From Escherichia phage T7, in sequence record AY264775.1: DNA of 39,093 nucleotides. The stretch is one strand, 5' to 3'. A program made the translations under genes and the position numbers. Of the stretch, positions 1 through 39,093 are shown in pieces; position 1 is the stretch's first letter; each line of letters opens with the position of its first letter. Under the pieces are notes generated by a model, which ran no database searches, had not been told where the DNA came from, and saw only the letters and a program-made list of their open reading frames with translations.

Positions 1-136
1 TCCCCCCTAGGGGGTACCTAAAGCCCAGCCAATCATCTAAAGTCAACCTTCGGTTGACCTTGAGGGTTCCCTAAGGGTTGGGGATGACCCTTGGGTTTGT
101 CTTTGGGTGTTACTTTGAGTGTTTCTCTGTGTCCCT
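1..136. repeat. Left terminal direct repeat (partial; window starts about 24 nt inside the T7 TR)
   Basis: 1..136 matches 38958..39093 at the other end of the window apart from 3 mismatches; sequence is the T7 TR. Confidence 0.9.
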
Positions 137-145
137 ATCTGTTAC

Positions 146-320
146 AGTCTCCTAAAGTATCCTCCTAAAGTCACCTCTTAACGTCCATCCTAAAGCCAAC
201 ACCTAAAGCCAACACCTAAAGACCCATCAAGTCAACGCCTATCTTAAAGTTTAAACATAAAGACCAGACCTAAAGACCAAACCTAAAGACACTACATAAA
301 GACCAGACCTAAAGACGCCT
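146..320. repeat. Left-end array of imperfect CCTAAAG-type short repeats (T7 concatemer-processing/packaging region)
   Basis: Repeated cctaaag / acctaaag / cataaag units read directly in sequence. Confidence 0.8.
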
Positions 321-363
321 TGTTGTTAACCATAAAGGGATAACCTTTAATCATTGTCTTTAT

Positions 364-386
364 TAATACAACTCACTATAAGGAGA
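364..386 (+). promoter_or_regulatory. T7 RNAP promoter phiOL
   Basis: taatacaactcactataaggaga, close match to 23-bp T7 promoter consensus. Confidence 0.8.
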
Positions 387-437
387 GACAACTTAAAGAG
401 ACTTAAAAGATTAATTTAAAATTTATCAAAAAAAGTA

Positions 438-474
438 TTGACTTAAAGTCTAACCTATAGGATACTTACAGCCA
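438..474 (+). promoter_or_regulatory. Host sigma70 early promoter A1
   Basis: -35 ttgact (438-443), 17-bp spacer, -10 gatact (461-466); position matches T7 A1. Confidence 0.85.
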
Positions 475-564
475 TCGAGAGGGACACGGCGAATAACCAT
501 CCCAATCGACACCGGGGTCAACCGAATAAATAGACAGCCTGATAAGTCGCACGAAAAACAGGTA

Positions 565-602
565 TTGACAACATGAAGTAACATGCAGTAAGATACAAAT
601 CG
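565..602 (+). promoter_or_regulatory. Host sigma70 early promoter A2
   Basis: -35 ttgaca (565-570), -10 taagat (589-594). Confidence 0.8.
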
Positions 603-689
603 CTAGGTAACATTAGCAGCGTCAACCGGGCGCACAGTGCCTTCTAGGTGACTTAAGCGCACCACGGCACATAAGGTGAAACAAAACAG

Positions 690-726
690 TTGACAACATG
701 AAGTAAACACGGTACGATGTACCACA
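690..726 (+). promoter_or_regulatory. Host sigma70 early promoter A3
   Basis: -35 ttgaca (690-695), 17-bp spacer, -10 tacgat (713-718). Confidence 0.8.
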
Positions 727-814
727 TGAAACGACAGTGAGTTACCACACTGAAAGGTGATGCGGTCTAACGAAACCTGACCTAAGACGCTCTTTAACAA
801 TCTGGTAAATAGCT

Positions 815-872
815 CTTGAGTGCATGACTAGCGGATAACTCAAGGATATCGCAAGGTGCCCTTTATGATATT
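815..872 (+). promoter_or_regulatory. RNase III processing site R0.3 (approximate)
   Basis: ctcaagg...ccctttatgat hairpin motif upstream of gene 0.3, same family as the other T7 RNase III sites in the window. Confidence 0.5.
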
Positions 873-900
873 CACTAATAACTGCACGAGGTAACACAAG

Positions 901-1254
901 ATGGCTATGTCTAACATGACTTACAACAACGTTTTCAACCACGCTTACGAAATGCTGAAAGAAAATATCCGTTATGATGACATCCGTGACACTGATGACC
1001 TGCACGATGCTATTCACATGACTGCCGATAATGCAGTTCCGCACTACTACGCTGACATCTTTAGCGTAATGGCAAGTGAGGGCATTGACCTTGAGTTCGA
1101 AGACTCTGGTCTGATGCCTAACACTAAGGACGTAATCCGCATCCTGCAAGCGCGTATCTATGAGCAATTAACGATTGACCTCTGGGAAGACGCAGAAGAC
1201 TTGCTCAATGAATACTTGGAGGAAGTCGAGGAGTACGAGGAGGAGGAAGAGTAA
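901..1254 (+). CDS. 0.3: Ocr, DNA-mimic anti-restriction protein (gp0.3)
   Basis: 117-aa ORF, acidic C-terminus, recognisable Ocr sequence. Confidence 0.95.
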
Positions 1255-1409
1255 TGTCTACTACCAACGTGCAATACGGTCTGACCGCTCAAACTGTATT
1301 TTTCTATAGCGACATGGTGCGCTGTGGCTTTAACTGGTCACTCGCAATGGCACAGCTCAAAGAACTGTACGAAAACAACAAGGCAATAGCTTTAGAATCT
1401 GCTGAGTGA
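1254..1409 (+). CDS. 0.4: gp0.4 (small early protein, reported FtsZ inhibitor)
   Basis: 51-aa [13 protein letters not shown]...; start overlaps the 0.3 stop (TAATG). Confidence 0.8.
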   Translation: MSTTNVQYGLTAQTVFFYSDMVRCGFNWSLAMAQLKELYENNKAIALESAE

Positions 1410-1410
1410 T

Positions 1411-1452
1411 AGACTCAAGGTCGCTCCTAGCGAGTGGCCTTTATGATTATCA
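1411..1452 (+). promoter_or_regulatory. RNase III site R0.5 (approximate)
   Basis: actcaaggtcgctcctagcgagtggcctttatgatt hairpin motif. Confidence 0.5.
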
Positions 1453-1471
1453 CTTTACTTATGAGGAAGTA

Positions 1472-1615
1472 ATGTATATGCTTACTATCGGTCTACTCAC
1501 CGTTTTAGATCTAGCTGTAGGTGCATCCTTTGGGAAGGCTTTAGGTGTAGCTGTAGGTTCCTACTTTACCGCTTGCATCATCATAGAAATCATCAAAGGG
1601 GCACTACGCAAATGA
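1472..1615 (+). CDS. 0.5: gp0.5, small hydrophobic early protein
   Basis: 47-aa [15 protein letters not shown]... preceded by gaggaag SD; the longer track ORF 1406..1615 begins inside the RNase III site. Confidence 0.75.
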
Positions 1616-2256
1616 TGAAGCACTACGTTATGCCAATCCACACGTCCAACGGGACAACCGTATGTACACCTGATGGGTTCGCAATGAAACAACGAATCGA
1701 ACGCCTTAAGCGTGAACTCCGCATTAACCGCAAGTTCTTTGAGGGCATCGCCTCATTCGACATGCATAGCGGGAACATCATGTTCTCAAATGGAGACGTA
1801 CCATACATCACCAACCCGGTATCATTCTCGCAGAAGAAAGATGGTGGCGCATTCAGCATCGACCCTGAGGAACTCATCAAGGAAGTCGAGGAAGTCGCAC
1901 GACAGAAAGAAATTGACCGCGCTAAGGCCCGTAAAGAACGTCACGAGGGGCGCTTAGAGGCACGCAGATTCAAACGTCGCAACCGCAAGGCACGTAAAGC
2001 ACACAAAGCTAAGCGCGAAAGAATGCTTGCTGCGTGGCGATGGGCTGAACGTCAAGAACGGCGTAACCATGAGGTAGCTGTAGATGTACTAAGAAGAACC
2101 AATAACGCTATGCTCTGGGTCAACATGTTCTCTGGGGACTTTAAGGCGCTTGAGAAACGAATCGCGCTGCACTGGCGTAATGCTGACCGGATGGCTATCG
2201 CTAATGGTCTTACGCTCAACATTGATAAGCAACTTGACGTAATGTTAATGGACTGA
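1612..2256 (+). CDS. 0.6/0.7: In-frame fusion: N-terminal ~41 aa of gp0.6 joined to the C-terminal ~173 aa of gp0.7 (host-transcription shutoff part; protein kinase domain deleted)
   Basis: ORF starts [14 protein letters not shown] (gp0.6) and continues ...RINRK|[17 protein letters not shown]... (gp0.7 C-terminal region); length accounting against T7 indicates ~820 bp missing here. Confidence 0.8.
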
Positions 2257-2261
2257 TAGTC

Positions 2262-2312
2262 TTATCTTACAGGTCATTTGCGGGTGGCCTGAATAGGTAC
2301 GATTTACTAACT
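2262..2312 (+). promoter_or_regulatory. RNase III site R1 (approximate)
   Basis: Hairpin-forming leader upstream of gene 1 at the T7 R1 position. Confidence 0.45.
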
Positions 2313-2326
2313 GAAAGAGGCACTAA

Positions 2327-4978
2327 ATGAACACGATTAACATTGCTAAGAACGACTTCTCTGACATCGAACTGGCTGCTATCCCGTTCAACACTCTGGC
2401 TGACCATTACGGTGAGCGTTTAGCTCGCGAACAGTTGGCTCTTGAACATGAGTCTTACGAGATGGGTGAAGCACGCTTCCGCAAGATGTTTGAGCGTCAA
2501 CTTAAAGCTGGTGAGGTTGCGGATAACGCTGCCGCCAAGCCTCTCATCACTACCCTACTCCCTAAGATGATTGCACGCATCAACGACTGGTTTGAGGAAG
2601 TGAAAGCTAAGCGCGGCAAGCGTCCGACAGCCTTCCAGTTTCTGCAAGAAATCAAGCCGGAAGCCGTAGCGTACATCACCATTAAAACCACTCTGGCTTG
2701 CCTAACCAGTGCTGACAATATAACCGTTCAGGCTGTAGCAAGCGCAATCGGTCGGGCCATTGAGGACGAGGCTCGCTTCGGTCGTATCCGTGACCTTGAA
2801 GCTAAGCACTTCAAGAAAAACGTTGAGGAACAACTCAACAAGCGCGTAGGGCACGTCTACAAGAAAGCATTTATGCAAGTTGTCGAGGCTGACATGCTCT
2901 CTAAGGGTCTACTCGGTGGCGAGGCGTGGTCTTCGTGGCATAAGGAAGACTCTATTCATGTAGGAGTACGCTGCATCGAGATGCTCATTGAGTCAACCGG
3001 AATGGTTAGCTTACACCGCCAAAATGCTGGCGTAGTAGGTCAAGACTCTGAGACTATCGAACTCGCACCTGAATACGCTGAGGCTATCGCAACCCGTGCA
3101 GGTGCGCTGGCTGGCATTTCTCCAATGTTCCAACCTTGCGTAATTCCTTCTAAGCCGTGGACTGGCATTACTGGTGGTGGCTATTGGGCTAACGGTCGTC
3201 GTCCTCTGGCGCTGGTGCGTACTCACAGTAAGAAAGCACTGATGCGCTACGAAAACGTTTACATGCCTGAGGTGTACAAAGCGATTAACATTGCGCAAAA
3301 CACCGCATGGAAAATCAACAAGAAAGTCCTAGCGGTCGCCAACGTAATTACCAAGTGGAAGCATTGTCCGGTCGAGGACATCCCTGCGATTGAGCGTGAA
3401 GAACTCCCGATGAAACCGAAAGACATCGACATGAATCCTGAGGCTCTCACCGCGTGGAAACGTGCTGCCGCTGCTGTGTACCGCAAGGACAAGGCTCGCA
3501 AATCTCGCCGTATCAACCTTGAGTTCATGCTTGAGCAAGCCAATAAGTTTGCTAACCATAAGGCCATCTGGTTCCCTTACAACATGGACTGGCGCGGTCG
3601 TGTTTACGCTGTGTCAATGTTCAACCCGCAAGGTAACGATATGACCAAAGGACTGCTTACGCTGGCGAAAGGTAAACCAATCGGTAAGGAAGGTTACTAC
3701 TGGCTGAAAATCCACGGTGCAAACTGTGCGGGTGTCGATAAGGTTCCGTTCCCTGAGCGCATCAAGTTCATTGAGGAAAACCACGAGAACATCATGGCTT
3801 GTGCTAAGTCTCCACTGGAGAACACTTGGTGGGCTGAGCAAAATTCTCCGTTCTGCTTCCTTGCGTTCTGCTTTGAGTACGCTGGAGTACAGCACCACGG
3901 CCTGAGCTATAACTGCTCCCTTCCGCTGGCGTTTGACGGGTCTTGCTCTGGCATCCAGCACTTCTCCGCGATGCTCCGAGATGAGGTAGGTGGTCGCGCG
4001 GTTAACTTGCTTCCTAGTGAAACCGTTCAGGACATCTACGGGATTGTTGCTAAAAAAGTCAACGAGATTCTACAAGCAGACGCAATCAATGGGACTGATA
4101 ACGAAGTAGTTACCGTGACCGATGAGAACACTGGTGAAATCTCTGAGAAAATCAAACTGGGCACTAAGGCACTGGCTGGTCAATGGCTGGCTTACGGTGT
4201 TACTCGCAGTGTGACTAAGCGTTCAGTCATGACGCTGGCTTACGGGTCCAAAGAGTTCGGCTTCCGTCAACAAGTGCTAGAAGATACCATTCAGCCAGCT
4301 ATTGATTCCGGCAAGGGTCTGATGTTCACTCAGCCGAATCAGGCTGCTGGATACATGGCTAAGCTGATTTGGGAATCTGTGAGCGTGACGGTGGTAGCTG
4401 CGGTTGAAGCAATGAACTGGCTTAAGTCTGCTGCTAAGCTGCTGGCTGCTGAGGTCAAAGATAAGAAGACTGGAGAGATTCTTCGCAAGCGTTGCGCTGT
4501 GCATTGGGTAACTCCTGATGGTTTCCCTGTGTGGCAGGAATACAAGAAGCCTATTCAGACGCGCTTGAACCTGATGTTCCTCGGTCAGTTCCGCTTACAG
4601 CCTACCATTAATACCAACAAAGATAGCGAGATTGATGCACACAAACAGGAGTCTGGTATCGCTCCTAACTTTGTACACAGTCAAGACGGTAGCCATCTTC
4701 GTAAGACTGTAGTGTGGGCACACGAGAAGTACGGAATCGAATCTTTTGCACTGATTCACGACTCCTTCGGTACCATTCCGGCTGACGCTGCGAACCTGTT
4801 CAAAGCAGTGCGCGAAACTATGGTTGACACATATGAGTCTTGTGATGTACTGGCTGATTTCTACGACCAGTTCGCTGACCAGTTGCACGAGTCTCAATTG
4901 GACAAAATGCCAGCACTTCCGGCTAAAGGTAACTTGAACCTCCGTGACATCTTAGAGTCGGACTTCGCGTTCGCGTAA
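2327..4978 (+). CDS. 1: T7 RNA polymerase (gp1)
   Basis: 883-aa ORF, essentially identical to canonical T7 RNAP apart from a handful of substitutions. Confidence 0.99.
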   Translation: MNTINIAKNDFSDIELAAIPFNTLADHYGERLAREQLALEHESYEMGEARFRKMFERQLKAGEVADNAAAKPLITTLLPKMIARINDWFEEVKAKRGKRPTAFQFLQEIKPEAVAYITIKTTLACLTSADNITVQAVASAIGRAIEDEARFGRIRDLEAKHFKKNVEEQLNKRVGHVYKKAFMQVVEADMLSKGLLGGEAWSSWHKEDSIHVGVRCIEMLIESTGMVSLHRQNAGVVGQDSETIELAPEYAEAIATRAGALAGISPMFQPCVIPSKPWTGITGGGYWANGRRPLALVRTHSKKALMRYENVYMPEVYKAINIAQNTAWKINKKVLAVANVITKWKHCPVEDIPAIEREELPMKPKDIDMNPEALTAWKRAAAAVYRKDKARKSRRINLEFMLEQANKFANHKAIWFPYNMDWRGRVYAVSMFNPQGNDMTKGLLTLAKGKPIGKEGYYWLKIHGANCAGVDKVPFPERIKFIEENHENIMACAKSPLENTWWAEQNSPFCFLAFCFEYAGVQHHGLSYNCSLPLAFDGSCSGIQHFSAMLRDEVGGRAVNLLPSETVQDIYGIVAKKVNEILQADAINGTDNEVVTVTDENTGEISEKIKLGTKALAGQWLAYGVTRSVTKRSVMTLAYGSKEFGFRQQVLEDTIQPAIDSGKGLMFTQPNQAAGYMAKLIWESVSVTVVAAVEAMNWLKSAAKLLAAEVKDKKTGEILRKRCAVHWVTPDGFPVWQEYKKPIQTRLNLMFLGQFRLQPTINTNKDSEIDAHKQESGIAPNFVHSQDGSHLRKTVVWAHEKYGIESFALIHDSFGTIPADAANLFKAVRETMVDTYESCDVLADFYDQFADQLHESQLDKMPALPAKGNLNLRDILESDFAFA

Positions 4979-4986
4979 CGCCAAAT

Positions 4987-5009
4987 CAATACGACTCACT
5001 ATAGAGGAA
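4987..5009 (+). promoter_or_regulatory. T7 promoter phi1.1A
   Basis: caatacgactcactatagaggaa. Confidence 0.85.
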
Positions 5010-5010
5010 C

Positions 5011-5050
5011 AAACTCAAGGTCATTCGCAAAAATGGCCTTTATGATTGAT
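5011..5050 (+). promoter_or_regulatory. RNase III site R1.1 (approximate)
   Basis: actcaaggtcattcgcaaaaatggcctttatgattg motif. Confidence 0.5.
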
Positions 5051-5061
5051 CTTCTTCCGGT

Positions 5062-5084
5062 TAATACGACTCACTATAGGAGAA
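5062..5084 (+). promoter_or_regulatory. T7 promoter phi1.1B
   Basis: taatacgactcactataggagaa. Confidence 0.9.
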
Positions 5085-5160
5085 CCTTAAGGTTTAACTT
5101 TAAGACCCTTAAGTGTTAATTAGAGATTTAAATTAAAGAATTACTAAGAGAGGACTTTAA
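5085..5160. other. AT-rich region downstream of phi1.1A/B, the position of the T7 primary origin of replication
   Basis: AT-rich stretch ttaaggtttaactttaagaccc...aaattaaagaattactaag; assignment by position in the T7 map. Confidence 0.5.
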
Positions 5161-5162
5161 GT

Positions 5163-5291
5163 ATGCGTAACTTCGAAAAGATGATCAAACGTTCTAACCG
5201 TAATGCTCGTGACTTCGAGGTAACCAAAGGTCGCAAGTTGAATAAGACTAAGCGTGACCGCTCTCACAAGCGTAGCTGGGAGAGTCAGTAA
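5163..5291 (+). CDS. 1.1: gp1.1, small basic protein
   Basis: 42-aa ORF MRNFEKMIKRSNRNARDFEV... Confidence 0.8.
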   Translation: MRNFEKMIKRSNRNARDFEVTKGRKLNKTKRDRSHKRSWESQ

Positions 5292-5292
5292 G

Positions 5293-5550
5293 ATGGGACG
5301 TTTATATAGTGGTAATCTGGCAGCATTCAAGGCAGCAACAAACAAGCTGTTCCAGTTAGACTTAGCGGTCATTTATGATGACTGGTATGATGTCTATACA
5401 AGAAAAGATTGCATACGGTTACGTATTGAGGACAGGAGTGGAAACCTGATTGATACTAACACCTTCTACCACCACGACGAGGACGTTCTGTTCAATATGT
5501 GTACTGATTGGTTGAACCATATGTATGACCAGTTGAAGGACTGGAAGTAA
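5293..5550 (+). CDS. 1.2: gp1.2, inhibitor of host dGTPase (Dgt)
   Basis: 85-aa ORF MGRLYSGNLAAFKAATNKLF... Confidence 0.85.
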   Translation: MGRLYSGNLAAFKAATNKLFQLDLAVIYDDWYDVYTRKDCIRLRIEDRSGNLIDTNTFYHHDEDVLFNMCTDWLNHMYDQLKDWK

Positions 5551-5570
5551 TACGACTCAGTATAGGGACA
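5548..5570 (+). promoter_or_regulatory. T7 promoter phi1.3
   Basis: taatacgactcagtatagggaca. Confidence 0.85.
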
Positions 5571-5572
5571 AT

Positions 5573-5612
5573 GCTTAAGGTCGCTCTCTAGGAGTGGCCT
5601 TAGTCATTTAAC
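5573..5612 (+). promoter_or_regulatory. RNase III site R1.3 (approximate)
   Basis: cttaaggtcgctctctaggagtggccttagtcatt motif. Confidence 0.5.
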
Positions 5613-5630
5613 CAATAGGAAATAAACATT

Positions 5631-6710
5631 ATGATGAACATTAAGACTAACCCGTTTAAAGCCGTGTCTTTCGTAGAGTCTGCCATTAAGAAGGCTCTGG
5701 ATAACGCTGGGTATCTTATCGCTGAAATCAAGTACAATGATGTACGCGGGAACATCTGCGTAGACAATACTGCTAACAGTTACTGGCTCTCTCGTGTATC
5801 TAAAACGATTCCGGCACTGGAGCACTTAAACGGGTTTGATGTTCGTTGGAAGCGTTTACTGAACGATGATCGTTGCTTCTACAAAGATGGCTTTATGCTT
5901 GATGGGGAACTCATGGTCAAGGGCGTAAACTTTAATACAGGGTCCGGTCTACTGCGTACCAAATGGACTGACACGAAGAACCAAGAGTTCCATGAAGAGT
6001 TATTCGTTGAACCAATCCGTAAGAAAGATAAAGTTCCCTTTAAGCTGCACACTGAACACCTTCACATAAAACTGTACGCTATCCTCCCGCTGCACATCGT
6101 GGAGTCTGGAAAAGACTGTGATGTCATGACGTTGCTCATGCAGGAACACGTTAAGAACATGCTGCCTCTGCTACAAGAATATTTTCCTGAAATCGAATGG
6201 CAAGCGGCTGAATCTTACGAGGTCTACGATATGGTAGAACTACAGCAACTGTACGAGCAGAAGCGAGCAGAAGGCCATGAGGGTCTCATTGTGAAAGACC
6301 CGATGTGTATCTATAAGCGCGGTAAAAAATCTGGCTGGTGGAAAATGAAACCTGAGAACGAAGCTGACGGTATCATTCAGGGTCTGATATGGGGTATAAA
6401 AGGTCTGGCTAATGAAGGTAAAGTGATTGGTTTTGAGGTGCTTCTTGAGAATGGTCGTTTAGTTAACGCCACGAATATTTCTCGTGCCTTAATGGATGAG
6501 TTCACTGAGACAGTAAAAGAGGCCACTCTAAGTCAATGGGGATTCTTTAGCCCATACGGTATTGGCGACAACGATGCTTGTACTATTAACCCTTACGATG
6601 GCTGGGCGTGTCAAATTAGCTACATGGAGGAAACACCTGATGGCTCTTTGCGGCACCCATCGTTCGTAATGTTCCGTGGCACTGAGGACAACCCTCAAGA
6701 GAAAATGTAA
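5631..6710 (+). CDS. 1.3: ATP-dependent DNA ligase (gp1.3)
   Basis: 359-aa ORF, T7 ligase. Confidence 0.95.
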   Translation: MMNIKTNPFKAVSFVESAIKKALDNAGYLIAEIKYNDVRGNICVDNTANSYWLSRVSKTIPALEHLNGFDVRWKRLLNDDRCFYKDGFMLDGELMVKGVNFNTGSGLLRTKWTDTKNQEFHEELFVEPIRKKDKVPFKLHTEHLHIKLYAILPLHIVESGKDCDVMTLLMQEHVKNMLPLLQEYFPEIEWQAAESYEVYDMVELQQLYEQKRAEGHEGLIVKDPMCIYKRGKKSGWWKMKPENEADGIIQGLIWGIKGLANEGKVIGFEVLLENGRLVNATNISRALMDEFTETVKEATLSQWGFFSPYGIGDNDACTINPYDGWACQISYMEETPDGSLRHPSFVMFRGTEDNPQEKM

Positions 6711-6715
6711 TCACA

Positions 6716-6742
6716 CTGGCTCACCTTCGGGTGGGCTTTTCT
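6716..6742 (+). terminator. Early terminator TE (intrinsic, for host RNAP)
   Basis: GC hairpin ggctcaccttcgggtgggc followed by ttttctg. Confidence 0.8.
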
Positions 6743-6763
6743 GCGTTTATAAGGAGACACTTT

Positions 6764-6939: not shown

Positions 6940-6946
6940 ACACACC

Positions 6947-7039
6947 ATGATGTACTTAATGCCATTACTCATCGTCATTGTAGGATGCCTTGCGCTCTAC
7001 TGTAGCGATGATGATGATATGCCAAATGGTCACGCTTAA
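6947..7039 (+). CDS. 1.5: gp1.5 (30 codons here; contains a GAT x4 run)
   Basis: ORF MMYLMPLLIVIVGCLALYCSDDDDMPNGHA. Confidence 0.7.
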   Translation: MMYLMPLLIVIVGCLALYCSDDDDMPNGHA

Positions 7040-7059: not shown

Positions 7060-7064
7060 ACTAT

Positions 7065-7325: not shown

Positions 7326-7904
7326 TGGGACTGTTAGATGGTGAAGTCTGGGAAAAAAACCCGCCAGTACAAGCAACTGGATGTATAGCTTGCTTAGAGA
7401 AAGATGACCGTTATCCACACATCTGTAACAAAGGAGCTAACGATATGACTGAACGTGAACAAGAGATGATCATTAAGTTGATAGACAATAATGAAGGTCG
7501 CCCAAATGATTTGAATGGCTGCGGTATTCTCTGCTCCAATGTCCCTTGCCACTTCTGCCCCACAAATAACGATCAAAAGATAACTTTAGGTGAAATCCGA
7601 GCGATGGACCCACGTAAACCACATCTGAATAAACCTGAGGTAACTCCTACAGATGACCAGCCTTCCGCTGAGACAATCGAAGGTGTCACTAAGCCTTCCC
7701 ACTACATGCTGTTTGACGACATTGAGGCTATCGAAGTGATTGCTCGTTCAATGACCGTTGAGCAGTTCAAGGGATACTGCTTCGGTAACATCTTAAAGTA
7801 CAGACTACGTGCTGGTAAGAAGTCAGAGTTAGCGTACTTAGAGAAAGACCTAGCGAAAGCAGACTTCTATAAAGAACTCTTTGAGAAACATAAGGATAAA
7901 TGTT

Positions 7905-9862: not shown

Positions 9863-10317
9863 TGGCTCGTGTACAGTTTAAACAACGTGAATCTACTGAC
9901 GCAATCTTTGTTCACTGCTCGGCTACCAAGCCAAGTCAGAATGTTGGTGTCCGTGAGATTCGCCAGTGGCACAAAGAGCAGGGTTGGCTCGATGTGGGAT
10001 ACCACTTTATCATCAAGCGAGACGGTACTGTGGAGGCAGGACGAGATGAGATGGTTGTAGGCTCTCACGCTAAGGGTTACAATCACAACTCTATCGGCGT
10101 CTGCCTTGTTGGTGGTATCGACGATAAAGGTAAGTTCGACGCTAACTTTACGCCAGCCCAAATGCAATCCCTTCGCTCACTGCTTGTCACATTGCTGGCT
10201 AAGTACGAAGGCGCTGTGCTTCGCGCCCATCATGAGGTGGCGCCGAAGGCTTGCCCTTCGTTCGACCTTAAGCGTTGGTGGGAGAAGAACGAACTGGTCA
10301 CTTCTGATCGTGGATAA
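9862..10317 (+). CDS. 3.5: Lysozyme, N-acetylmuramoyl-L-alanine amidase and RNAP inhibitor (gp3.5)
   Basis: 151-aa ORF MARVQFKQRESTDAIFVHCSATKPSQNVGV... Confidence 0.97.
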   Translation: MARVQFKQRESTDAIFVHCSATKPSQNVGVREIRQWHKEQGWLDVGYHFIIKRDGTVEAGRDEMVVGSHAKGYNHNSIGVCLVGGIDDKGKFDANFTPAQMQSLRSLLVTLLAKYEGAVLRAHHEVAPKACPSFDLKRWWEKNELVTSDRG

Positions 10318-10380: not shown

Positions 10381-12479
<2,099 letters not shown>

Positions 12480-13082: not shown

Positions 13083-13490
13083 ATGCGTGACCCTAAAGTT
13101 ATCCAAGCAGAAATCGCTAAACTGGAAGTTGAACTGGAGGACGTTAAGTACCATGAAGCTAAGACTCGCTCCGCTGTTCACATCTTGAAAAACTTAGGCT
13201 GGACTTGGACAAGACAGACTGGCTGAAAGAAACCAGAAGTTACCAAGTTGAGTCATAAGGTGTTCGATAAGGACACTATGACCCACATCAAGGCTGGTGA
13301 TTGGGTTAAGGTTGACATGGGAATTGTTGGTGGATACGACTACGTCCGCTCAGTTAGTGACAAATATGCACAAATGTCATACATCACAGATGTTACTCCA
13401 CGCGGTGCAATCGTTACCGATAAGACCAACATGATTCACACAGATTTCTTGACAGTTGTTTCATATGAAGAGATTGTTAAGTCACGATAA
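13083..13490 (+). pseudogene. 4.7: gp4.7 reading frame interrupted by an in-frame TGA at 13224-13226 (codon 48 of 135)
   Basis: ATG at 13083 after phi4.7 and an SD; same frame continues to the stop at 13488-13490; the track splits it into ORFs 12954..13226 and 13248..13490 in one frame. Confidence 0.8.
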
Positions 13491-16006: not shown

Positions 16007-16306
16007 ATGGCTATGACAAAGAAATTTAAAGTGTCCTTCGACGTTACCGCAAAGATGTCGTCTAACGTTCAGACAATCTTAGAGAAAGATATGCTGCATC
16101 TATGTAAGCAGGTCGGCTCAAGTGCGATTGTCCCCAATGGTAAACAGAAGGAAATGATTGTCCAGTTTCTGACACACGGTATGGAAGGATTGATGACATT
16201 CGTAGTACGTACATCATTTCGTGAGGCCATTAAGGACATGCACGAAGAGTATGCAGATAAGGACTCTTTCAAACAATCTCCTGCAACAGTACGGGAGGTG
16301 TTCTGA
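16007..16306 (+). CDS. 5.5: gp5.5, H-NS-binding protein
   Basis: 99-aa ORF MAMTKKFKVSFDVTAKMSSNVQTILEKDMLHL... Confidence 0.9.
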   Translation: MAMTKKFKVSFDVTAKMSSNVQTILEKDMLHLCKQVGSSAIVPNGKQKEMIVQFLTHGMEGLMTFVVRTSFREAIKDMHEEYADKDSFKQSPATVREVF

Positions 16307-16515
16307 TGTCTGACTATCTGAAAGTGCTGCAAGCAATCAAAAGTTGCCCTAAGACTTTCCAGTCCAACTATGTACGGAACAATGCGAGCCTCGTAGCGGA
16401 GGCCGCTTCCCGTGGTCACATCTCGTGCCTGACTACTAATGGACGTAACGGTGGCGCTTGAGAAATCACTGCTTCCGATATTCGCTTTCTGAAACGAATG
16501 AGAGGATGTGTCTAA
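16306..16515 (+). pseudogene. 5.7: gp5.7 (inhibitor of sigma-S RNA polymerase) interrupted by an in-frame TGA at 16459-16461 (codon 52 of 69)
   Basis: MSDYLKVLQAIKSCPKTFQSNYVRNNASLVAEAASRGHISCLTTNGRNGGA*EITASDIRFLKRMRGCV*. Confidence 0.8.
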
Positions 16516-16673
16516 TGTCTCGTGACCTTGTGACTATTCTACGCGATGTGTGAAACGATATACAGGGCTACATCGACTCTCTGGAACGTGAGAACGATAG
16601 CCTTAAGAATCAACTAATGGAAGCTGACGAATACGTAGCGGAACTAGAGGAGAAACTTAATGGCACTTCTTGA
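16515..16673 (+). pseudogene. 5.9: gp5.9 (RecBCD inhibitor) interrupted by an in-frame TGA at 16551-16553 (codon 13 of 52)
   Basis: MSRDLVTILRDV*NDIQGYIDSLERENDSLKNQLMEADEYVAELEEKLNGTS*. Confidence 0.85.
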
Positions 16674-22100: not shown

Positions 22101-22122
22101 ACTTTAAGAAGGAAATATACAT
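22101..22122 (+). promoter_or_regulatory. Gene 10 translation initiation region with altered Shine-Dalgarno (aaggaa instead of aaggag)
   Basis: tttaagaaggaaatatacat ATG; the canonical T7 gene 10 leader is tttaagaaggagatatacat. Confidence 0.85.
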
Positions 22123-23160: not shown

Positions 23161-23318
23161 TGCTGGGGGTGGCCTCAACGGTCGCTGCTAGTCCCGAAGA
23201 GGCGAGTGTTACTTCAACAGAAGAAACCTTAACGCCAGCACAGGAGGCCGCACGCACCCGCGCTGCTAACAAAGCCTGAAAGGAAGCTGAGTTGGCTGCT
23301 GTCACCGCTGAGCAATAA
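22123..23318 (+). CDS. 10B: Minor capsid protein gp10B (frameshift product); the -1 frame extension carries a premature TGA at 23277-23279
   Basis: -1 frame after the shift reads ...EAARTRAANKA*KEAELAAVTAEQ*. Confidence 0.75.
23142..23150 (+). other. Programmed -1 ribosomal frameshift region of gene 10 (produces 10B)
   Basis: ggttttcaa slippery stretch just before the 10A stop; the -1 frame continues toward 23318. Confidence 0.7.
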
Positions 23319-33707: not shown

Positions 33708-33727
33708 TACGACTCACTATAGGGAGA
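33705..33727 (+). promoter_or_regulatory. T7 promoter phi17 (class III)
   Basis: taatacgactcactatagggaga. Confidence 0.95.
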
Positions 33728-33779
33728 GGCGAAATAATCTTCTCCCTGTAGTCTCTTAGATTTACTTTAAGGAGGTCAA

Positions 33780-35441
33780 ATGGCTAACGTAATTAAAACC
33801 GTTTTGACTTACCAGTTAGATGGCTCCAATCGTGATTTTAATATCCCGTTTGAGTATCTAGCCCGTAAGTTCGTAGTGGTAACTCTTATTGGTGTAGACC
33901 GAAAGGTCCTTACGATTAATACAGACTATCGCTTTGTTACACGTACTACTATCTCTCTGACAAAGGCTTGGGGTCCAGCCGATGGTTACACGACCATCGA
34001 GTTACGTCGAGTAACCTCCACTACCGATCGATTGGTTGACTTTACGGATGGTTCAATCCTCCGCGCGTATGACCTTAACGTCGCTCAGATTCAAACGATG
34101 CACGTAGCGGAAGAGGCCCGTGACCTCACTACGGATACTATCGGTGTCAATAACGATGGTCACTTGGATGCTCGTGGTCGTCGAATTGTGAACCTAGCGA
34201 ACGCCGTGGATGACCGCGATGTTGTTCCGTTTGGTCAACTAAAGACCATGAACCAGAACTCATGGCAAGCACGTAATGAAGCCTTACAGTTCCGTAATGA
34301 GGCTGAAACTTTCAGAAACCAAGCGGAGGGCTTTAAGAACGAGTCCAGTACCAACGCTACGAACACAAAGCAGTGGCGCGATGAGACCAAGGGTTTCCGA
34401 GACGAAGCCAAGTGGTTCAAGAATACGGCTGGTCAATACGCTACATCTGCTGGGAACTCTGCTTCCGCTGCGCATCAATTTGAGGTAAACGCTGAGAACT
34501 CTGCCACAGCATCCGCTAACTCTGCTCATTTGGCAGAACAGCAAGCAGACCGTGCGGAACGTGAGGCAGACAAGCTGGAAAATTACAATGAATTGGCTGG
34601 TGCAATTGATAAGGTAGATGGAACCAATGTGTACTGGAAAGGAAATATTCACGCTAACGGGCGCCTTTACATGACCACAAACGGTTTTGACTGTGGCCAG
34701 TATCAACAGTTCTTTGGTGGTGTCACTAATCGTTACTCTGTCATGGAGTGGGGAGATGAGAACGGATGGCTGATGTATGTTCAACGTAGAGAGTGGACAA
34801 CAGCGATAGGCGGTAACATCCAGTTAGTAGTAAACGGACAGATCATCACTCAAGGTGGAGCCATGACCGGTCAGCTAAAATTGCAGAATGGGCATGTTCT
34901 TCAATTAGAGTCCGCATCCGACAAGGCGCACTATATTCTATCTAAAGATGGTAACAGGAATAACTGGTACATTGGTAGAGGGTCAGATAACAACAATGAC
35001 TGTACCTTCCACTCCTATGTACATGGTACGACCTTAACACTCAAGCAGAACTATGCAGTAGTTAACAAACACTTCCACGTAGGTCAGGCCGTTGTGGCCA
35101 CTGATGGTAATATTCAAGGTACTAAGTGGGGAGGTAAATGGCTGGATGCTTACCTACGTGACAGCTTCGTTGCGAAGTCCAAGACGTGGACTCAGGTGTG
35201 GTCTGGTAGAGCTGGCGGTGGGGTAAGTGTGACTGTTTCACAGGATCTCCGCTTCCGCAATATCTGGATTAAGTGTGCCAACAACTCTTGGAACTTCTGC
35301 CGTACTGGCCCCGATGGAACCTACTTCATAGCCTCTGATGGTGGATGGTTACGATTCCAAATACACTCCAACGGTCTCGGATTCAAGAATATTGCAGACA
35401 GTCGTTCAGTACCTAATGCAATCATGGTGGAGAACGAGTAA
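33780..35441 (+). CDS. 17: Tail fiber protein gp17
   Basis: 553-aa ORF MANVIKTVLTYQLDGSNRDF... Confidence 0.97.
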   Translation: MANVIKTVLTYQLDGSNRDFNIPFEYLARKFVVVTLIGVDRKVLTINTDYRFVTRTTISLTKAWGPADGYTTIELRRVTSTTDRLVDFTDGSILRAYDLNVAQIQTMHVAEEARDLTTDTIGVNNDGHLDARGRRIVNLANAVDDRDVVPFGQLKTMNQNSWQARNEALQFRNEAETFRNQAEGFKNESSTNATNTKQWRDETKGFRDEAKWFKNTAGQYATSAGNSASAAHQFEVNAENSATASANSAHLAEQQADRAEREADKLENYNELAGAIDKVDGTNVYWKGNIHANGRLYMTTNGFDCGQYQQFFGGVTNRYSVMEWGDENGWLMYVQRREWTTAIGGNIQLVVNGQIITQGGAMTGQLKLQNGHVLQLESASDKAHYILSKDGNRNNWYIGRGSDNNNDCTFHSYVHGTTLTLKQNYAVVNKHFHVGQAVVATDGNIQGTKWGGKWLDAYLRDSFVAKSKTWTQVWSGRAGGGVSVTVSQDLRFRNIWIKCANNSWNFCRTGPDGTYFIASDGGWLRFQIHSNGLGFKNIADSRSVPNAIMVENE

Positions 35442-35499
35442 TTGGTAAATCACAAGGAAAGACGTGTAGTCCACGGATGGACTCTCAAGGAGGTACAAG

Positions 35500-35703
35500 G
35501 TGCTATCATTAGACTTTAACAACGAATTGATTAAGGCTGCTCCAGTTGTTGGGATGGGTGTAGCAGATGTTAGTGCTCGACTGTTCTTTGGGTTAAGCCT
35601 TAACGAATGGTTCTACGCTGCTGCTATCGCCTACACAGTGGTTCAGATTGGTGCCAAGGTAGTCGATAAGATGATTGACTGGAAGAAAGCTAATAAGGAG
35701 TGA
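35500..35703 (+). CDS. 17.5: Holin gp17.5
   Basis: 67-aa ORF with a hydrophobic segment; in-frame start is a GTG after aaggaggt SD. Confidence 0.85.
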   Translation: MLSLDFNNELIKAAPVVGMGVADVSARLFFGLSLNEWFYAAAIAYTVVQIGAKVVDKMIDWKKANKE

Positions 35704-35708
35704 TATGT

Positions 35709-35978
35709 ATGGAAAAGGATAAGAGCCTTATTACATTCTTAGAGATGTTGGACACTGCGATGGCTCAGCGTATGCTTGCGGATCTTTCGGACCATGAGCG
35801 TCGCTCTCCGCAACTCTATAATGCTATTAACAAACTGTTAGACCGCCACAAGTTCCAGATTAGTAAGTTGCAGCCGGATGTTCACATCTTAGGTGGCCTT
35901 GCTGGTGCTCTTGAAGAGTACAAAGAGAAAGTCGGTGATAACGGTCTTACGGATGATGATATTTACACATTACAGTGA
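35709..35978 (+). CDS. 18: Terminase small subunit gp18
   Basis: 89-aa frame MEKDKSLITFLEMLDTAMAQ... Confidence 0.9.
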   Translation: MEKDKSLITFLEMLDTAMAQRMLADLSDHERRSPQLYNAINKLLDRHKFQISKLQPDVHILGGLAGALEEYKEKVGDNGLTDDDIYTLQ

Positions 35979-35982
35979 TATA

Positions 35983-36025
35983 TTCAAGGCCACTACAGAT
36001 AGTGGTCTTTATGGATGTCATTGTC
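35983..36025 (+). promoter_or_regulatory. RNase III site R18.5 (approximate)
   Basis: tattcaaggccactacagatagtggtctttatggatg hairpin. Confidence 0.5.
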
Positions 36026-36072
36026 TATACGAGATGCTCCTACGTGAAATCTGAAAGTTAACGGAAGGCATT

Positions 36073-36504
36073 ATGCTAGAATTTTTACGTAAGCTAATCC
36101 TTTGGGTTCTCGCTGGGATGCTATTCGGGTTAGGATGGCATCTAGGGTCAGACTCAATGGACGCTAAATGGAAACAGGAGGTACACAATGAGTACGTTAA
36201 GAGAGTTGAGGCTGCGAAGAGCACTCAAAGAGCAATCGATGCGGTATCTGCTAAGTATCAAGAAGACCTTGCCGCGTTGGAAGGGAGCACTGATAGGATT
36301 ATTTCTGATTTGCGTAGCGACAATAAGCGGTTGCGCGTCAGAGTCAAAACTACCGGAACCTTCGATGGTCAGTGTGGATTCGAGCCTGATGGTCGAGCCG
36401 AACTTGACGACCGAGATGTTAAACGTATTCTCGCAGTGACCCAGAAGGGTGACGCATGGATTCGTGCGTTACAGGATATTATTCGTGAACTGCAACGTAA
36501 GTAG
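36073..36504 (+). CDS. 18.5: gp18.5, Rz-like inner-membrane spanin
   Basis: 143-aa ORF with N-terminal transmembrane segment. Confidence 0.9.
   Translation: MLEFLRKLILWVLAGMLFGLGWHLGSDSMDAKWKQEVHNEYVKRVEAAKSTQRAIDAVSAKYQEDLAALEGSTDRIISDLRSDNKRLRVRVKTTGTFDGQCGFEPDGRAELDDRDVKRILAVTQKGDAWIRALQDIIRELQRK
36188..36439 (+). CDS. 18.7: gp18.7, Rz1-like outer-membrane spanin embedded in the +1 frame of 18.5
   Basis: 83-aa ORF entirely within 18.5, contains a lipobox-like ...ISGCAS. Confidence 0.75.
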   Translation: MSTLRELRLRRALKEQSMRYLLSIKKTLPRWKGALIGLFLICVATISGCASESKLPEPSMVSVDSSLMVEPNLTTEMLNVFSQ

Positions 36505-36525
36505 GAAATCAAGTAAGGAGGCAAT

Positions 36526-38286
36526 GTGTCTACTCAATCCAATCGTAATGCGCTCGTAGTGGCGCAACTGAAAGGAGACTTCGTGGCGTTCCTATTCGTC
36601 TTATGGAAGGCGCTAAACCTACCGGTGCCCACTAAGTGTCAGATTGACATGGCTAAGGTGCTGGCGAATGGAGACAACAAGAAGTTCATCTTACAGGCTT
36701 TCCGTGGTATCGGTAAGTCGTTCATCACATGTGCGTTCGTTGTGTGGTCCTTATGGAGAGACCCTCAGTTGAAGATACTTATCGTATCAGCCTCTAAGGA
36801 GCGTGCAGACGCTAACTCCATCTTTATTAAGAACATCATTGACCTGCTGCCATTCCTATCTGAGTTAAAGCCAAGACCCGGACAGCGTGACTCGGTAATC
36901 AGCTTTGATGTAGGCCCAGCCAATCCTGACCACTCTCCTAGTGTGAAATCAGTAGGTATCACTGGTCAGTTAACTGGTAGTCGTGCTGACATTATCATTG
37001 CGGATGACGTTGAGATTCCGTCTAACAGCGCAACTATGGGTGCCCGTGAGAAGCTATGGACTCTGGTTCAGGAGTTCGCTGCGTTACTTAAACCGCTGCC
37101 TTCCTCTCGCGTTATCTACCTTGGTACACCTCAGACAGAGATGACTCTCTATAAGGAACTTGAGGATAACCGTGGGTACACAACCATTATCTGGCCTGCT
37201 CTGTACCCAAGGACACGTGAAGAGAACCTCTATTACTCACAGCGTCTTGCTCCTATGTTACGCGCTGAGTACGATGAGAACCCTGAGGCACTTGCTGGGA
37301 CTCCAACAGACCCAGTGCGCTTTGACCGTGATGACCTGCGCGAGCGTGAGTTGGAATACGGTAAGGCTGGCTTTACGCTACAGTTCATGCTTAACCCTAA
37401 CCTTAGTGATGCCGAGAAGTACCCGCTGAGGCTTCGTGACGCTATCGTAGCGGCCTTAGACTTAGAGAAGGCCCCAATGCATTACCAGTGGCTTCCGAAC
37501 CGTCAGAACATCATTGAGGACCTTCCTAACGTTGGCCTTAAGGGTGATGATCTGCATACGTACCACGATTGTTCCAACAACTTAGGTCAGTATCAACAGA
37601 AGATTCTGGTCATTGACCCTAGTGGTCGCGGTAAGGACGAAACAGGTTACGCTGTGCTGTACACACTGAACGGTTACATCTACCTTATGGAAGCTGGAGG
37701 TTTCCGTGATGGCTACTCCGATAAGACCCTTGAGTTACTCGCTAAGAAGGCAAAGCAATGGGGAATCCAGACGGTTGTCTACGAGAGTAACTTCGGTGAC
37801 GGTATGTTCGGTAAGGTATTCAGTCCTATCCTTCTTAAACACCACAACTGTGCGATGGAAGAGATTCGTGCCCGTGATATGAAAGAGATGCGTATTTGCG
37901 ATACCCTTGAGCCAGTCATGCAGACTCACCGCCTTGTAATTCGTGATGAGGTCATTAGGGCCGACTACCAGTCCGCTCGTGACGTAGACGGTAAGCATGA
38001 CGTTAAGTACTCGTTGTTCTACCAGATGACCCGTATCACTCGTGAGAAAGGCGCTCTGGCTCATGATGACCGATTGGATGCCCTTGCGTTAGGCATTGAG
38101 TATCTCCGTGAGTCCATGCAGTTGGATTCCGTTAAGGTCGAGGGTGAAGTACTTGCTGACTTCCTTGAGGAACACATGGTGCGTCCTACGGTTGCTGCTA
38201 CGCATATCATTGAGATGTCTGTGGGAGGAGTTGATGTGTACTCTGAGGACGATGAGGGTTACAGTACGTCTTTCATTGAGTGGTGA
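36526..38286 (+). CDS. 19: Terminase large subunit gp19
   Basis: 586-aa ORF; the in-frame start at 36526 is GTG after aaggagg. Confidence 0.97.
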
Positions 38287-38367
38287 TTTATGCATTAGGA
38301 CTGCATAGGGATGCACTATAGACCACGGATGGTCAGTTCTTTAAGTTACTGAAAAGACACGATAAAT

Positions 38368-38390
38368 TAATACGACTCACTATAGGGAGA
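38368..38390 (+). promoter_or_regulatory. T7 promoter phiOR (class III)
   Basis: taatacgactcactatagggaga. Confidence 0.95.
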
Positions 38391-38544
38391 GGAGGGACGA
38401 AAGGTTACTATATAGATACTGAATGAATACTTATAGAGTGCATAAAGTATGCATAATGGTGTACCTAGAGTGACCTCTAAGAATGGTGATTATATTGTAT
38501 TAGTATCACCTTAACTTAAGGACCAACATAAAGGGAGGTGACTC

Positions 38545-38694
38545 ATGTTCCGCTTATTGTTGAACCTACTGCGGCATAGAGTCACCTACCGATTTCTTGT
38601 GGTACTTTGTGCTGCCCTTGGGTACGCATCTCTTACTGGAGACCTCAGTTCACTGGAGTCTGTCGTTTGCTCTATACTCACTTGTAGCGATTAG
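38545..38694 (+). CDS. 19.5: gp19.5
   Basis: 49-aa ORF MFRLLLNLLRHRVTYRFLVVLCAALGYASLTGDLSSLESVVCSILTCSD. Confidence 0.7.
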   Translation: MFRLLLNLLRHRVTYRFLVVLCAALGYASLTGDLSSLESVVCSILTCSD

Positions 38695-38699
38695 GGTCT

Positions 38700-38933
38700 T
38701 CCTGACCGATTGATGGCTCACCGAGGGATTCAGCGGTATGATTGCATCACACCACTTCATCCCTATAGAGTCAAGTCCTAAGGTATACCCATAAAGAGTC
38801 TCTAATGGTCTATCCTAAGGTCTATACCTAAAGATAGGCCATCCTATCAGTGTCACCTAAAGAGGGTCTTAGAGAGGGCCTATGGAGTTCCTATAGGGTC
38901 CTTTAAAATATACCATAAAAATCTGAGTGACTA
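38700..38933. repeat. Right-end short-repeat region preceding the terminal repeat
   Basis: Repeated cctaaag / cataaag / cctatag-like units. Confidence 0.6.
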
Positions 38934-39093
38934 TCTCACAGTGTACGGACTTAAAGTTCCCCCATAGGGGGTACCTAAAGCCCAGCCAATCATCTAAAGT
39001 CAACCTTCGGTTGACCTTGAGGGTTCCCTAAGGGTTGGGGATGACCCTTGGGTTTGTCTTTGGGTGTTACTTTGAGTGTCTCTCTGTGTCCCA
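38934..39093. repeat. Right terminal direct repeat (full copy)
   Basis: Begins tctcacagtgtacgga...; 38958..39093 is the counterpart of window 1..136. Confidence 0.9.

What the first reader, a model, noticed from the sequence alone, without database searches (positions are those of the whole stretch)
1..39093. Genome-wide G:C->A:T transition signature: a heavily mutated T7 lineage
Wherever I can recall the wild-type sequence confidently, the window differs by a G->A or C->T change on the + strand. Examples: the gene 1 leader ctgGaag->ctgAaag (2314); RNAP codons giving T132I, V273I, P275S, D310N, E365K, S397N, D506N and V609I (numbering from window coordinates) plus many silent changes such as atCgct->atTgct; the gene 10 Shine-Dalgarno; two C->T changes in the 10B tail; and TGG->TGA in 4.7, 5.7 and 5.9. 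I found no confident A->G or T->C change. A spot check of the first ~400 nt of gene 1 suggests roughly 1-2% divergence, which would extrapolate to several hundred substitutions. A one-directional spectrum of this kind is what an alkylating mutagen (nitrosoguanidine-type), hydroxylamine or cytosine deamination would produce, not natural divergence. All essential genes remain full length, implying selection during accumulation.
Basis: partly seen in the sequence, partly recalled or inferred. Interest (0 to 1): 0.85.

Follow-up and report, generated by a model that had tools for sequence, protein, structure and literature searches.

The report
Published nitrosoguanidine-mutagenised T7 laboratory line

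Summary
Against the submitters' own wild type (AY264774) the window has 416 substitutions in 39,090 aligned bases (1.06%). A natural relative (YpP-Y) shows a balanced spectrum: 30% G:C>A:T, 30% A:T>G:C, 40% transversions.

Mutated guanines are preceded by a purine in 80% of cases (background 51%), and the 3' base has no effect. This is the O6-methylguanine context of nitrosoguanidine-type methylating agents. It argues against hydroxylamine or APOBEC-like deamination.

Selection is visible. dN/dS is 0.51 in essential genes and 1.07 in dispensable ones. Nonsense mutations number 0 in essential genes (about 13 expected) and 3 in dispensable genes (4.7, 5.7, 5.9).

The window's gp1, gp5 and gp17 are exact matches to AAP33969, AAP33990 and AAP34009 on a 39,093-nt contig. 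Those numbers fall in the gap that AY264775 occupies. AY264776 (isolate K115) differs from the window by only 31 substitutions. The window is therefore the published "hundreds of mutations" T7 line, not a discovery. Novelty: already known. Interest: low.

The parts
1..39093 (.). Complete T7 genome (the record starts at T7 position 25). It has 416 substitutions against T7+, of which 390 are G:C>A:T, spread without clustering.
   Evidence: Alignment. Context analysis. Scan statistics show no clustering beyond chance. Exact protein matches on a 39,093-nt contig.
1728..1734 (+). Junction of an 821-bp deletion (T7+ 1759-2579). The single remaining copy of the 7-bp direct repeat CCGCAAG sits here. 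The deletion removes the 3' end of gene 0.6 and the kinase half of gene 0.7.
   Evidence: Line P has a different 819-bp deletion (2170-2988), so the loss of 0.7 is parallel and independent.
1612..2256 (+). In-frame fusion ORF of 214 aa: gp0.6A residues 1-41 joined to gp0.7 residues 187-359.
   Evidence: translation shown.
2314..2314 (+). G>A in the gene 1 leader (CTGGAAG to CTGAAAG).
2327..4978 (+). Gene 1 (T7 RNA polymerase), full length at 883 aa, with 8 amino-acid changes and 19 silent changes, all G:C>A:T.
   Evidence: Exact match to AAP33969.1.
7007..7009 (+). GAT triplet gain in gene 1.5, which adds one Asp.
7355..7356 (+). Site of a 3-bp loss in an A-rich run of gene 1.7, which removes one Glu.
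13083..13490 (+). Gene 4.7, inactivated by W48* (TGG>TGA at 13226), with 8 further missense changes.
   Evidence: The descendant record K115 annotates this stretch only as 'similar to gene 4.7'.
16306..16515 (+). Gene 5.7, inactivated by W52* (TGG>TGA at 16461).
   Evidence: The region is later deleted in K115.
16515..16673 (+). Gene 5.9, inactivated by W13* (TGG>TGA at 16553).
   Evidence: The region is later deleted in K115.
22114..22114 (+). G>A in the gene 10 Shine-Dalgarno sequence (AAGGAG to AAGGAA).
23277..23302 (+). Two C>T changes (23277 and 23302) in the gene 10B frameshift tail.
1..136 (.). Left terminal repeat (TR positions 25-160). It has C>T at TR 60, 138 and 147, and A>C at TR 31.
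38934..39093 (.). Right terminal repeat. It has C>T at TR 18, 60 and 138. TR 147 is wild type here, and the final base reads A.

Best explanation
The window is the genome of a laboratory-evolved phage T7 line, almost certainly 'isolate K' (GenBank AY264775) of Bull, Badgett, Rokyta and Molineux 2003 (J Mol Evol 57:241).

From my recollection of that work, which I could not read here, the line was passaged many times in the presence of N-methyl-N'-nitro-N-nitrosoguanidine with repeated bottlenecks.

Inferred mechanism:
1. The mutagen methylates guanine at O6, preferentially where the guanine follows a purine.
2. O6-methylguanine pairs with thymine at replication, which gives G>A when the lesion is on the + strand and C>T when it is on the - strand.
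3. Bottlenecks fixed about 400 of these changes.
4. Selection for plaque formation removed nonsense changes and about half of the missense changes in essential genes. Dispensable genes drifted freely, and three of them acquired stop codons.
5. Separately, slippage or recombination between 7-bp direct repeats deleted the kinase half of gene 0.7.
For: Shown here:
- 390 of 416 substitutions are G:C>A:T.
- The fraction of guanines mutated depends on the 5' neighbour: G 3.84%, A 2.77%, C 1.04%, T 0.69% (chi-square p = 5e-32). The 3' neighbour has no effect (p = 0.39).
- The same context appears for G>A and for C>T, and in the independent line P.
- dN/dS is 0.51 in essential genes (p = 2e-8 against the mutational expectation) and 1.07 in dispensable genes. 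Nonsense changes number 0 against about 12.9 expected in essential genes (P = 2.6e-6) and 3 against about 5.2 in dispensable genes.
- A natural relative gives a balanced spectrum.
- Identity: gp1, gp5 and gp17 match AAP33969.1, AAP33990.1 and AAP34009.1 exactly, on a 39,093-nt contig. Those numbers lie between AAP33965, the last CDS of AY264774, and AAP34018, the first CDS of AY264776. AY264775 is absent from the searchable collection.
- K115 (AY264776) differs from the window by 31 substitutions plus extra deletions.
- AY264774 is the T7+ of Bull et al. 2003 (PMC2680503).
- Only 4 of the 20 new substitutions in K115 are G:C>A:T, so the bias is not a property of the phage itself.
- Nitrosoguanidine mutagenesis of T7 is reported to be dominated by GC>AT (PMC6042481).

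From established knowledge: the 5'-purine-G preference of MNNG (Burns, Gordon and Glickman 1987) and the C>T at NpCpY pattern of COSMIC SBS11.
Against: - The primary paper is not held. The mutagen, the passage scheme and the name 'isolate K' for AY264775 therefore rest on my recollection and on the names of sibling records (K115, P, P82).
- The nucleotide record AY264775 could not be compared directly.
- About 6% of the changes are not G:C>A:T. Nine of those 26 are shared with line P, so they may be differences in the ancestral stock or parallel adaptive changes rather than mutagen hits.
- Other SN1 methylating agents, such as MNU, would give the same signature. Sequence alone cannot name the compound.
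Confidence: 0.93

Rival explanations
1. The phage was treated with hydroxylamine or bisulfite, which modify cytosine chemically. These agents also give G:C>A:T.
For: The spectrum alone is compatible. Hydroxylamine mutagenesis of T7 is also reported to be dominated by GC>AT (PMC6042481).
Against: There is a strong dependence on the base 5' of the mutated G, which is the base 3' of the mutated C (80% against a 51% background, p = 5e-32). That dependence is the hallmark of O6-G methylation and, to my knowledge, is not expected for cytosine-specific chemistry. The record belongs to a submission that I recall as nitrosoguanidine work.
Confidence: 0.03
2. An enzyme deaminated cytosines: an APOBEC/AID-like deaminase, a base editor, or transcription-associated deamination of the non-transcribed strand.
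For: C>T and G>A dominate. At synonymous sites C>T on the coding strand is somewhat over-represented: the G>A share is 32.5% against 42% expected.
Against: The base 5' of the mutated C, which is the base 3' of the mutated G, has no effect (p = 0.39). There is therefore no TC, CC or WRC motif. Both strands are hit about equally per site (1.97% of G, 2.16% of C). There are no strand-coordinated clusters beyond chance.
Confidence: 0.01
3. The differences reflect natural divergence of a wild T7 relative, or a heritable mutator DNA polymerase (gene 5) allele.
For: Gene 5 carries 10 missense changes. One of them, G15095T, is shared with line P.
Against: Natural divergence from T7 is balanced: 30% G:C>A:T, 30% A:T>G:C and 40% transversions. 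The descendant K115 keeps the window's gene 5 changes (none is among the changes lost in K115), yet only 4 of its 20 new substitutions are G:C>A:T. In P to P82 the figure is 11 of about 24. So the bias stopped while the polymerase stayed. Two of K115's 20 new substitutions, T14406G and C15020A, do lie in gene 5, so a later suppressor of a mutator allele is not strictly excluded. The genome is also a deposited laboratory isolate.
Confidence: 0.02
4. The changes are a sequencing or DNA-damage artefact, such as deaminated template.
For: Damage artefacts are typically C>T and G>A.
Against: K115 retains 388 of the window's 416 substitutions. Its record was at least partly re-read, because it differs from the window at several sites, including reversions to wild type. 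The changes show purifying selection: dN/dS is 0.51 in essential genes and none of them has a nonsense change. The context is that of alkylation, not of deamination.
Confidence: 0.005

Closest known systems
T7 isolate K115 (GenBank AY264776)
   Same: It carries 388 of the window's 416 substitutions and the same 3-bp indels in genes 1.5 and 1.7. It differs from the window by only 31 substitutions.
   Different: K115 has a larger early-region deletion (T7+ 1502-3092) and a 654-bp deletion that removes genes 5.5 to 5.9. It has 20 new substitutions that are mostly not G:C>A:T, and 3 G:C>A:T changes back to wild type (plus two non-G:C>A:T sites near the left end that read wild type). It is the descendant, not the same genome.
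T7 isolate P and P82 (AY264777, AY264778)
   Same: They come from the same submission and have the same spectrum (286 of 307 changes G:C>A:T), the same 5'-purine context and a parallel loss of gene 0.7.
   Different: P is an independent line. It shares only 25 substitutions with the window. Sixteen of these are G:C>A:T, against about 8 expected by chance (P = 0.0045). Its deletion has different end points, and different dispensable genes are inactivated.
SN1 methylating-agent signature (MNNG or MNU in E. coli lacI; temozolomide, COSMIC SBS11)
   Same: G:C>A:T makes up more than 90% of changes. The mutated G is preceded by a purine, with GG favoured over AG and both over YG. Both strands are affected and indels are few.
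   Different: The window shows a fixed, selection-filtered set accumulated over many passages in a phage, not a single-exposure spectrum. Missense and nonsense changes in essential genes have been removed.
T7 grown at high nitrosoguanidine dose (Springman et al. 2010, as cited in PMC6042481 and PMC8923235)
   Same: Same phage, same laboratory tradition, and a GC>AT-dominated spectrum.
   Different: That was a later experiment with large populations, designed to test lethal mutagenesis. It is not the source of this record.

Membership tests
GenBank AY264775 (T7 'isolate K', Bull et al. 2003) | Encoded proteins are identical to those deposited under that record, and the contig has the same length. 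| tested here: met
   gp1, gp5 and gp17 match AAP33969.1, AAP33990.1 and AAP34009.1 exactly, each on one contig of 39,093 nt, which is the window length. The numbers lie between AAP33965 (AY264774) and AAP34018 (AY264776).
GenBank AY264775 (T7 'isolate K', Bull et al. 2003) | Nucleotide-for-nucleotide identity with the record. | not testable with these tools
   AY264775 is not in the phage collection, and the look-up of encoding contigs has no entry for the protein.
GenBank AY264775 (T7 'isolate K', Bull et al. 2003) | It is the immediate ancestor of K115. | tested here: met
   There are 31 substitution differences. K115 keeps 388 of the 416 changes and adds deletions.
GenBank AY264775 (T7 'isolate K', Bull et al. 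2003) | A history of passage in nitrosoguanidine with bottlenecks. | not testable with these tools
   The paper is not held. Only its title, citation and the link to AY264774 were confirmed. The protocol is from my memory.
SN1 methylating-agent (MNNG-type) mutational signature | G:C>A:T transitions dominate overwhelmingly. | tested here: met
   390 of 416 changes, or 93.8%. Among changes private to this line the figure is 374 of 391, or 95.7%.
SN1 methylating-agent (MNNG-type) mutational signature | The mutated G is preferentially preceded by a purine (5'-RG), and the 3' base has no effect. | tested here: met
   Fraction mutated by 5' neighbour: G 3.84%, A 2.77%, C 1.04%, T 0.69% (p = 5e-32). 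The 3' neighbour gives p = 0.39. The result is replicated in line P.
SN1 methylating-agent (MNNG-type) mutational signature | Both strands are hit and show the same context. | tested here: met
   1.97% of G and 2.16% of C are mutated. 84% of G>A changes and 75% of C>T changes lie in the purine context, against a 51% background.
Hydroxylamine or bisulfite cytosine modification | G:C>A:T changes without the 5'-RG neighbour dependence. This expectation is from general knowledge. | tested here: not met
   The neighbour dependence is strong. The spectrum alone cannot discriminate between the agents.
APOBEC/AID-type enzymatic deamination | A motif 5' of the mutated C (TC, CC or WRC), often with strand-coordinated clusters. 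| tested here: not met
   The base 5' of the mutated C has no effect (p = 0.39). Clusters and same-strand runs do not exceed chance.
Natural Teseptimavirus divergence | A roughly balanced transition spectrum with a substantial share of transversions. | tested here: not met
   T7 against YpP-Y gives 29.7% G:C>A:T, 30.3% A:T>G:C and 40% transversions. The window over the same 14 kb gives 91.6% G:C>A:T.

The most novel reading that the evidence does not exclude
In both independent lines, changes in the terminal repeat up to position 138 occur in both the left and the right copy. Changes at TR 147 (this window) and TR 157 (line P) occur only in the left copy, and that difference persists in the descendants K115 and P82. 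If this were real rather than technical, the innermost 14 to 22 bp of the T7 'repeat' would not be homogenised between genome ends. That would conflict with the model in which a single junction copy is duplicated during concatemer processing. A technical cause is far more likely: the last roughly 22 nt of the right end were probably derived from a primer or not read independently. In support of that, the records start at TR 20-25, and the final base reads A in both K and P.
Probability: 0.04. Interest if true: 0.4.

Novelty: already known. Interest (0 to 1): 0.08.

Why it matters
As a discovery it does not matter. The genome, its hundreds of mutations and their origin were the subject of a 2003 paper, and the sequence has been public since then.

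It is a useful positive control for the scan, because a reader with no tools correctly diagnosed a chemical-mutagen signature and the action of selection from raw sequence.

The quantitative picture obtained here is a clean reference for what an alkylation-driven, bottlenecked phage genome looks like:
- 94% of changes are G:C>A:T.
- 80% of mutated G sit in the 5'-RG context.
- dN/dS is 0.51 in essential genes and 1.07 in dispensable genes.
- No essential gene has a nonsense change.

Tried and rejected
- **Mutation clustering or MNNG 'comutation'.** The 7 G>A changes within 122 bp of gene 4.7 looked like a cluster. Scan statistics at 60 to 500 bp and the longest same-strand run are all within chance (P = 0.35 to 0.58). 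The runs test is only marginal (z = -2.1).
- **Left-right gradient in strand bias.** The G>A share is 56% in the left half and 43% in the right half (p = 0.0096). This is explained by composition. Synonymous sites are C>T-rich and the right half is more constrained. Within synonymous sites, left against right gives p = 0.37.
- **Protection of T7 promoters.** There are no changes at -17 to -1 in any of the 17 promoters, but only 1.46 were expected (P = 0.23). This is not evidence of selection.
- **Literature.** The DOI of Bull et al. 2003, PMC1462109 and PMC3457771 are not held. The one library paper found on MNNG context (PMC10114081) reports a human-cell spectrum rich in T>C, so it is not a suitable reference.
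- **Natural control.** I recalled EU734172 as phage 13a. It is EcoDS1 and too divergent, so I replaced it with YpP-Y.
- **Record name.** The look-up of encoding contigs gave no record for gp1.


Full report
**What the window is.** Megablast of the first 25 kb finds phage T7 at 98.8% identity over its full length. I fetched NC_001604, the Bull-laboratory wild type AY264774 (T7+), and the sibling records AY264776 (isolate K115), AY264777 (isolate P) and AY264778 (isolate P82). AY264775 is missing from the collection.

**Checking the observation.** A six-way MAFFT alignment gives 416 substitutions between T7+ and the window in 39,090 aligned positions, which is 1.06%.
- They are 199 G>A, 191 C>T, 9 A>G, 4 T>C and 13 transversions, so 93.8% are G:C>A:T.
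- The transition asymmetry is 390:13 (p about 1e-97).
The leader has G>A at w2314. The eight RNA polymerase substitutions are T132I, V273I, P275S, D310N, E365K, S397N, D506N and V609I, alongside 19 silent changes. The gene 10 Shine-Dalgarno sequence has G>A at w22114. The 10B tail has C>T at w23277 and w23302. TGG>TGA stops occur in gene 4.7 (W48*), gene 5.7 (W52*) and gene 5.9 (W13*).
- Its statement that there are no A>G or T>C changes is slightly too strong. There are 13, plus 13 transversions.
- As a control for natural divergence I aligned 14 kb of T7 with Yersinia phage YpP-Y. The result was 29.7% G:C>A:T, 30.3% A:T>G:C and 40% transversions. The window over the same region gives 91.6% G:C>A:T.

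**Which agent.** The share of guanines mutated depends strongly on the 5' neighbour: G 3.84%, A 2.77%, C 1.04%, T 0.69% (chi-square p = 5e-32). It does not depend on the 3' neighbour (p = 0.39).
- In all, 80% of mutated G follow a purine, against 51% of all G.
- The same holds separately for G>A (84%) and C>T (75%), and in the independent line P.
- From established knowledge, 5'-purine-G is the context preference of O6-guanine methylation by MNNG and related SN1 agents (Burns, Gordon and Glickman 1987; COSMIC SBS11).
- An APOBEC/AID-type deaminase would instead show a motif 5' of the mutated C, which is the base 3' of the G. None is seen.
- Hydroxylamine also gives GC>AT in T7 (PMC6042481), but I do not expect it to show this neighbour rule.
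- Per-site rates on the two strands are nearly equal: 1.97% of G and 2.16% of C.
- The mutations are not clustered beyond chance.

**Selection.** I computed expected synonymous, missense and nonsense opportunities for G:C>A:T changes, weighted by context, for each T7 gene. The split into essential and dispensable genes is my own, from general knowledge of T7 genetics; it was not taken from a tool or a cited table.
- In essential genes there are 119 missense and 123 synonymous changes and no nonsense change, giving dN/dS of 0.51 (p = 2e-8 against the mutational expectation).
- In dispensable genes there are 84 missense, 43 synonymous and 3 nonsense changes, giving dN/dS of 1.07 (p = 0.93).
- About 12.9 nonsense changes would be expected in essential genes under neutrality, and none is seen (P = 2.6e-6).
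- Direct translation shows that every essential ORF keeps its wild-type length. Only genes 0.6A, 0.7, 1.5, 1.7, 4.7, 5.7 and 5.9 differ.

**Other changes.**
- An 821-bp deletion (T7+ 1759-2579) lies between two copies of CCGCAAG. It fuses gp0.6A residues 1-41 in frame to gp0.7 residues 187-359.
- Line P lost gene 0.7 through a different 819-bp deletion. Early-region deletions recur in laboratory T7 (PMC8923235).
- A GAT triplet was gained in gene 1.5 and three bases were lost from an A-rich run in gene 1.7.

**Identity of the record.** The window's gp1, gp5 and gp17 are exact matches to NCBI proteins AAP33969.1, AAP33990.1 and AAP34009.1, each on a single contig of 39,093 nt, which is the window length.
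- These numbers fall between AAP33965, the last protein of AY264774, and AAP34018, the first protein of AY264776. That is the gap AY264775 would occupy.
- K115 differs from the window by 31 substitutions and keeps 388 of its 416 changes. It has further deletions that remove, among other things, the already inactivated genes 5.7 and 5.9.
- AY264774 is stated to be the T7+ of Bull et al. 2003 (PMC2680503). [quoted passage not shown]
- The paper itself is not held. That the line was propagated in nitrosoguanidine with bottlenecks, and that K and P are tips of the 1992 Hillis et al. experimental phylogeny (T7 passaged 'in the presence of a mutagen', PMC2491900), is my recollection and was not tested here.

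**Rival explanations.**
- A heritable mutator polymerase is unlikely. The 20 new substitutions in K115 include only 4 G:C>A:T, although the window's gene 5 changes are still present.
- A sequencing or damage artefact is excluded. The changes are inherited by K115, whose record differs from the window at sites that show it was at least partly re-read, and they carry a selection signature.

**Side observations.**
- K and P share 25 identical substitutions. Sixteen are G:C>A:T, against about 8 expected by chance (P = 0.0045). Nine are of other types, which suggests some shared stock differences or parallel changes.
- Terminal-repeat changes up to TR 138 are present in both repeat copies. TR 147 (K) and TR 157 (P) are changed only in the left copy, and the same is true in the descendants. 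The likeliest reason is that the last roughly 22 nt of the right end were not read independently.
- A left-right difference in the G>A share is explained by the mix of synonymous and missense changes.

**Verdict.** The object is a deposited, published laboratory genome, so its novelty is 'already known' and its interest is low.

Noticed in passing
window 1-136 and 38934-39093: The terminal-repeat copies differ at TR 147 (left T at w123, right C). Line P shows the same pattern at TR 157. Both differences persist in the descendants K115 and P82, whereas changes at TR 138 or lower are in both copies. The window's two other left-right differences do not persist in K115: TR 31 (w7) reads wild-type A there, and K115's record ends before TR 160. 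The final base reads A in both K and P, which looks like a run-off or primer artefact. The most likely cause is technical: the right-end 22 nt or so were not read independently.
   Followed up: partly
window 1612-2256: The 821-bp deletion between CCGCAAG repeats creates an in-frame ORF of 214 aa. It joins the first 41 residues of gp0.6A to the C-terminal 173 residues of gp0.7, so the kinase half is lost and the C-terminal half is kept. Line P removed a different part of gene 0.7.
   Followed up: partly
window 7007-7009 and 7355/7356: Two in-frame 3-bp slippage events in dispensable genes. A GAT triplet gain in gene 1.5 turns DDD into DDDD. A 3-bp loss in an A-rich run of gene 1.7 removes one Glu. 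Both are inherited by K115.
   Followed up: yes
whole window, synonymous sites: At synonymous sites, pooled over lines K and P, G>A on the + strand is 32.5% of G:C>A:T changes against 42% expected from context-weighted opportunities. The deficit is significant in the right half (p = 0.002). This could be a mild strand asymmetry in lesion formation or repair, or selection on codons. It remains unexplained.
   Followed up: partly
T7+ coordinates 11062-11063, 15095, 19572, 30720, 36165, 36390, 36463 (window 10217-10218, 14250, 18727, 29875, 35320, 35545, 35618): Eight internal changes that are not G:C>A:T are identical in the independent lines K and P, including an adjacent GT>TG in gene 3.5. The ninth shared change of this kind is the terminal-base T>A noted above. 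They are probably differences between the ancestral stock and T7+, or parallel adaptive changes, rather than mutagen hits.
   Followed up: no
window 6934 (phi1.5 position +1); +5 of phi1.1A and of phi4c: The initiating G of promoter phi1.5 is changed to A, and two other T7 promoters are changed at +5. None of the 17 promoters is changed at -17 to -1, but only 1.46 changes were expected there, so this is not significant.
   Followed up: yes
window 13323-13444 (gene 4.7, downstream of W48*): Seven G>A changes on the same strand lie within 122 bp of an already inactivated gene. This looked like a hypermutation cluster, but it is within chance for 390 mutations (scan statistic P = 0.35).
   Followed up: yes
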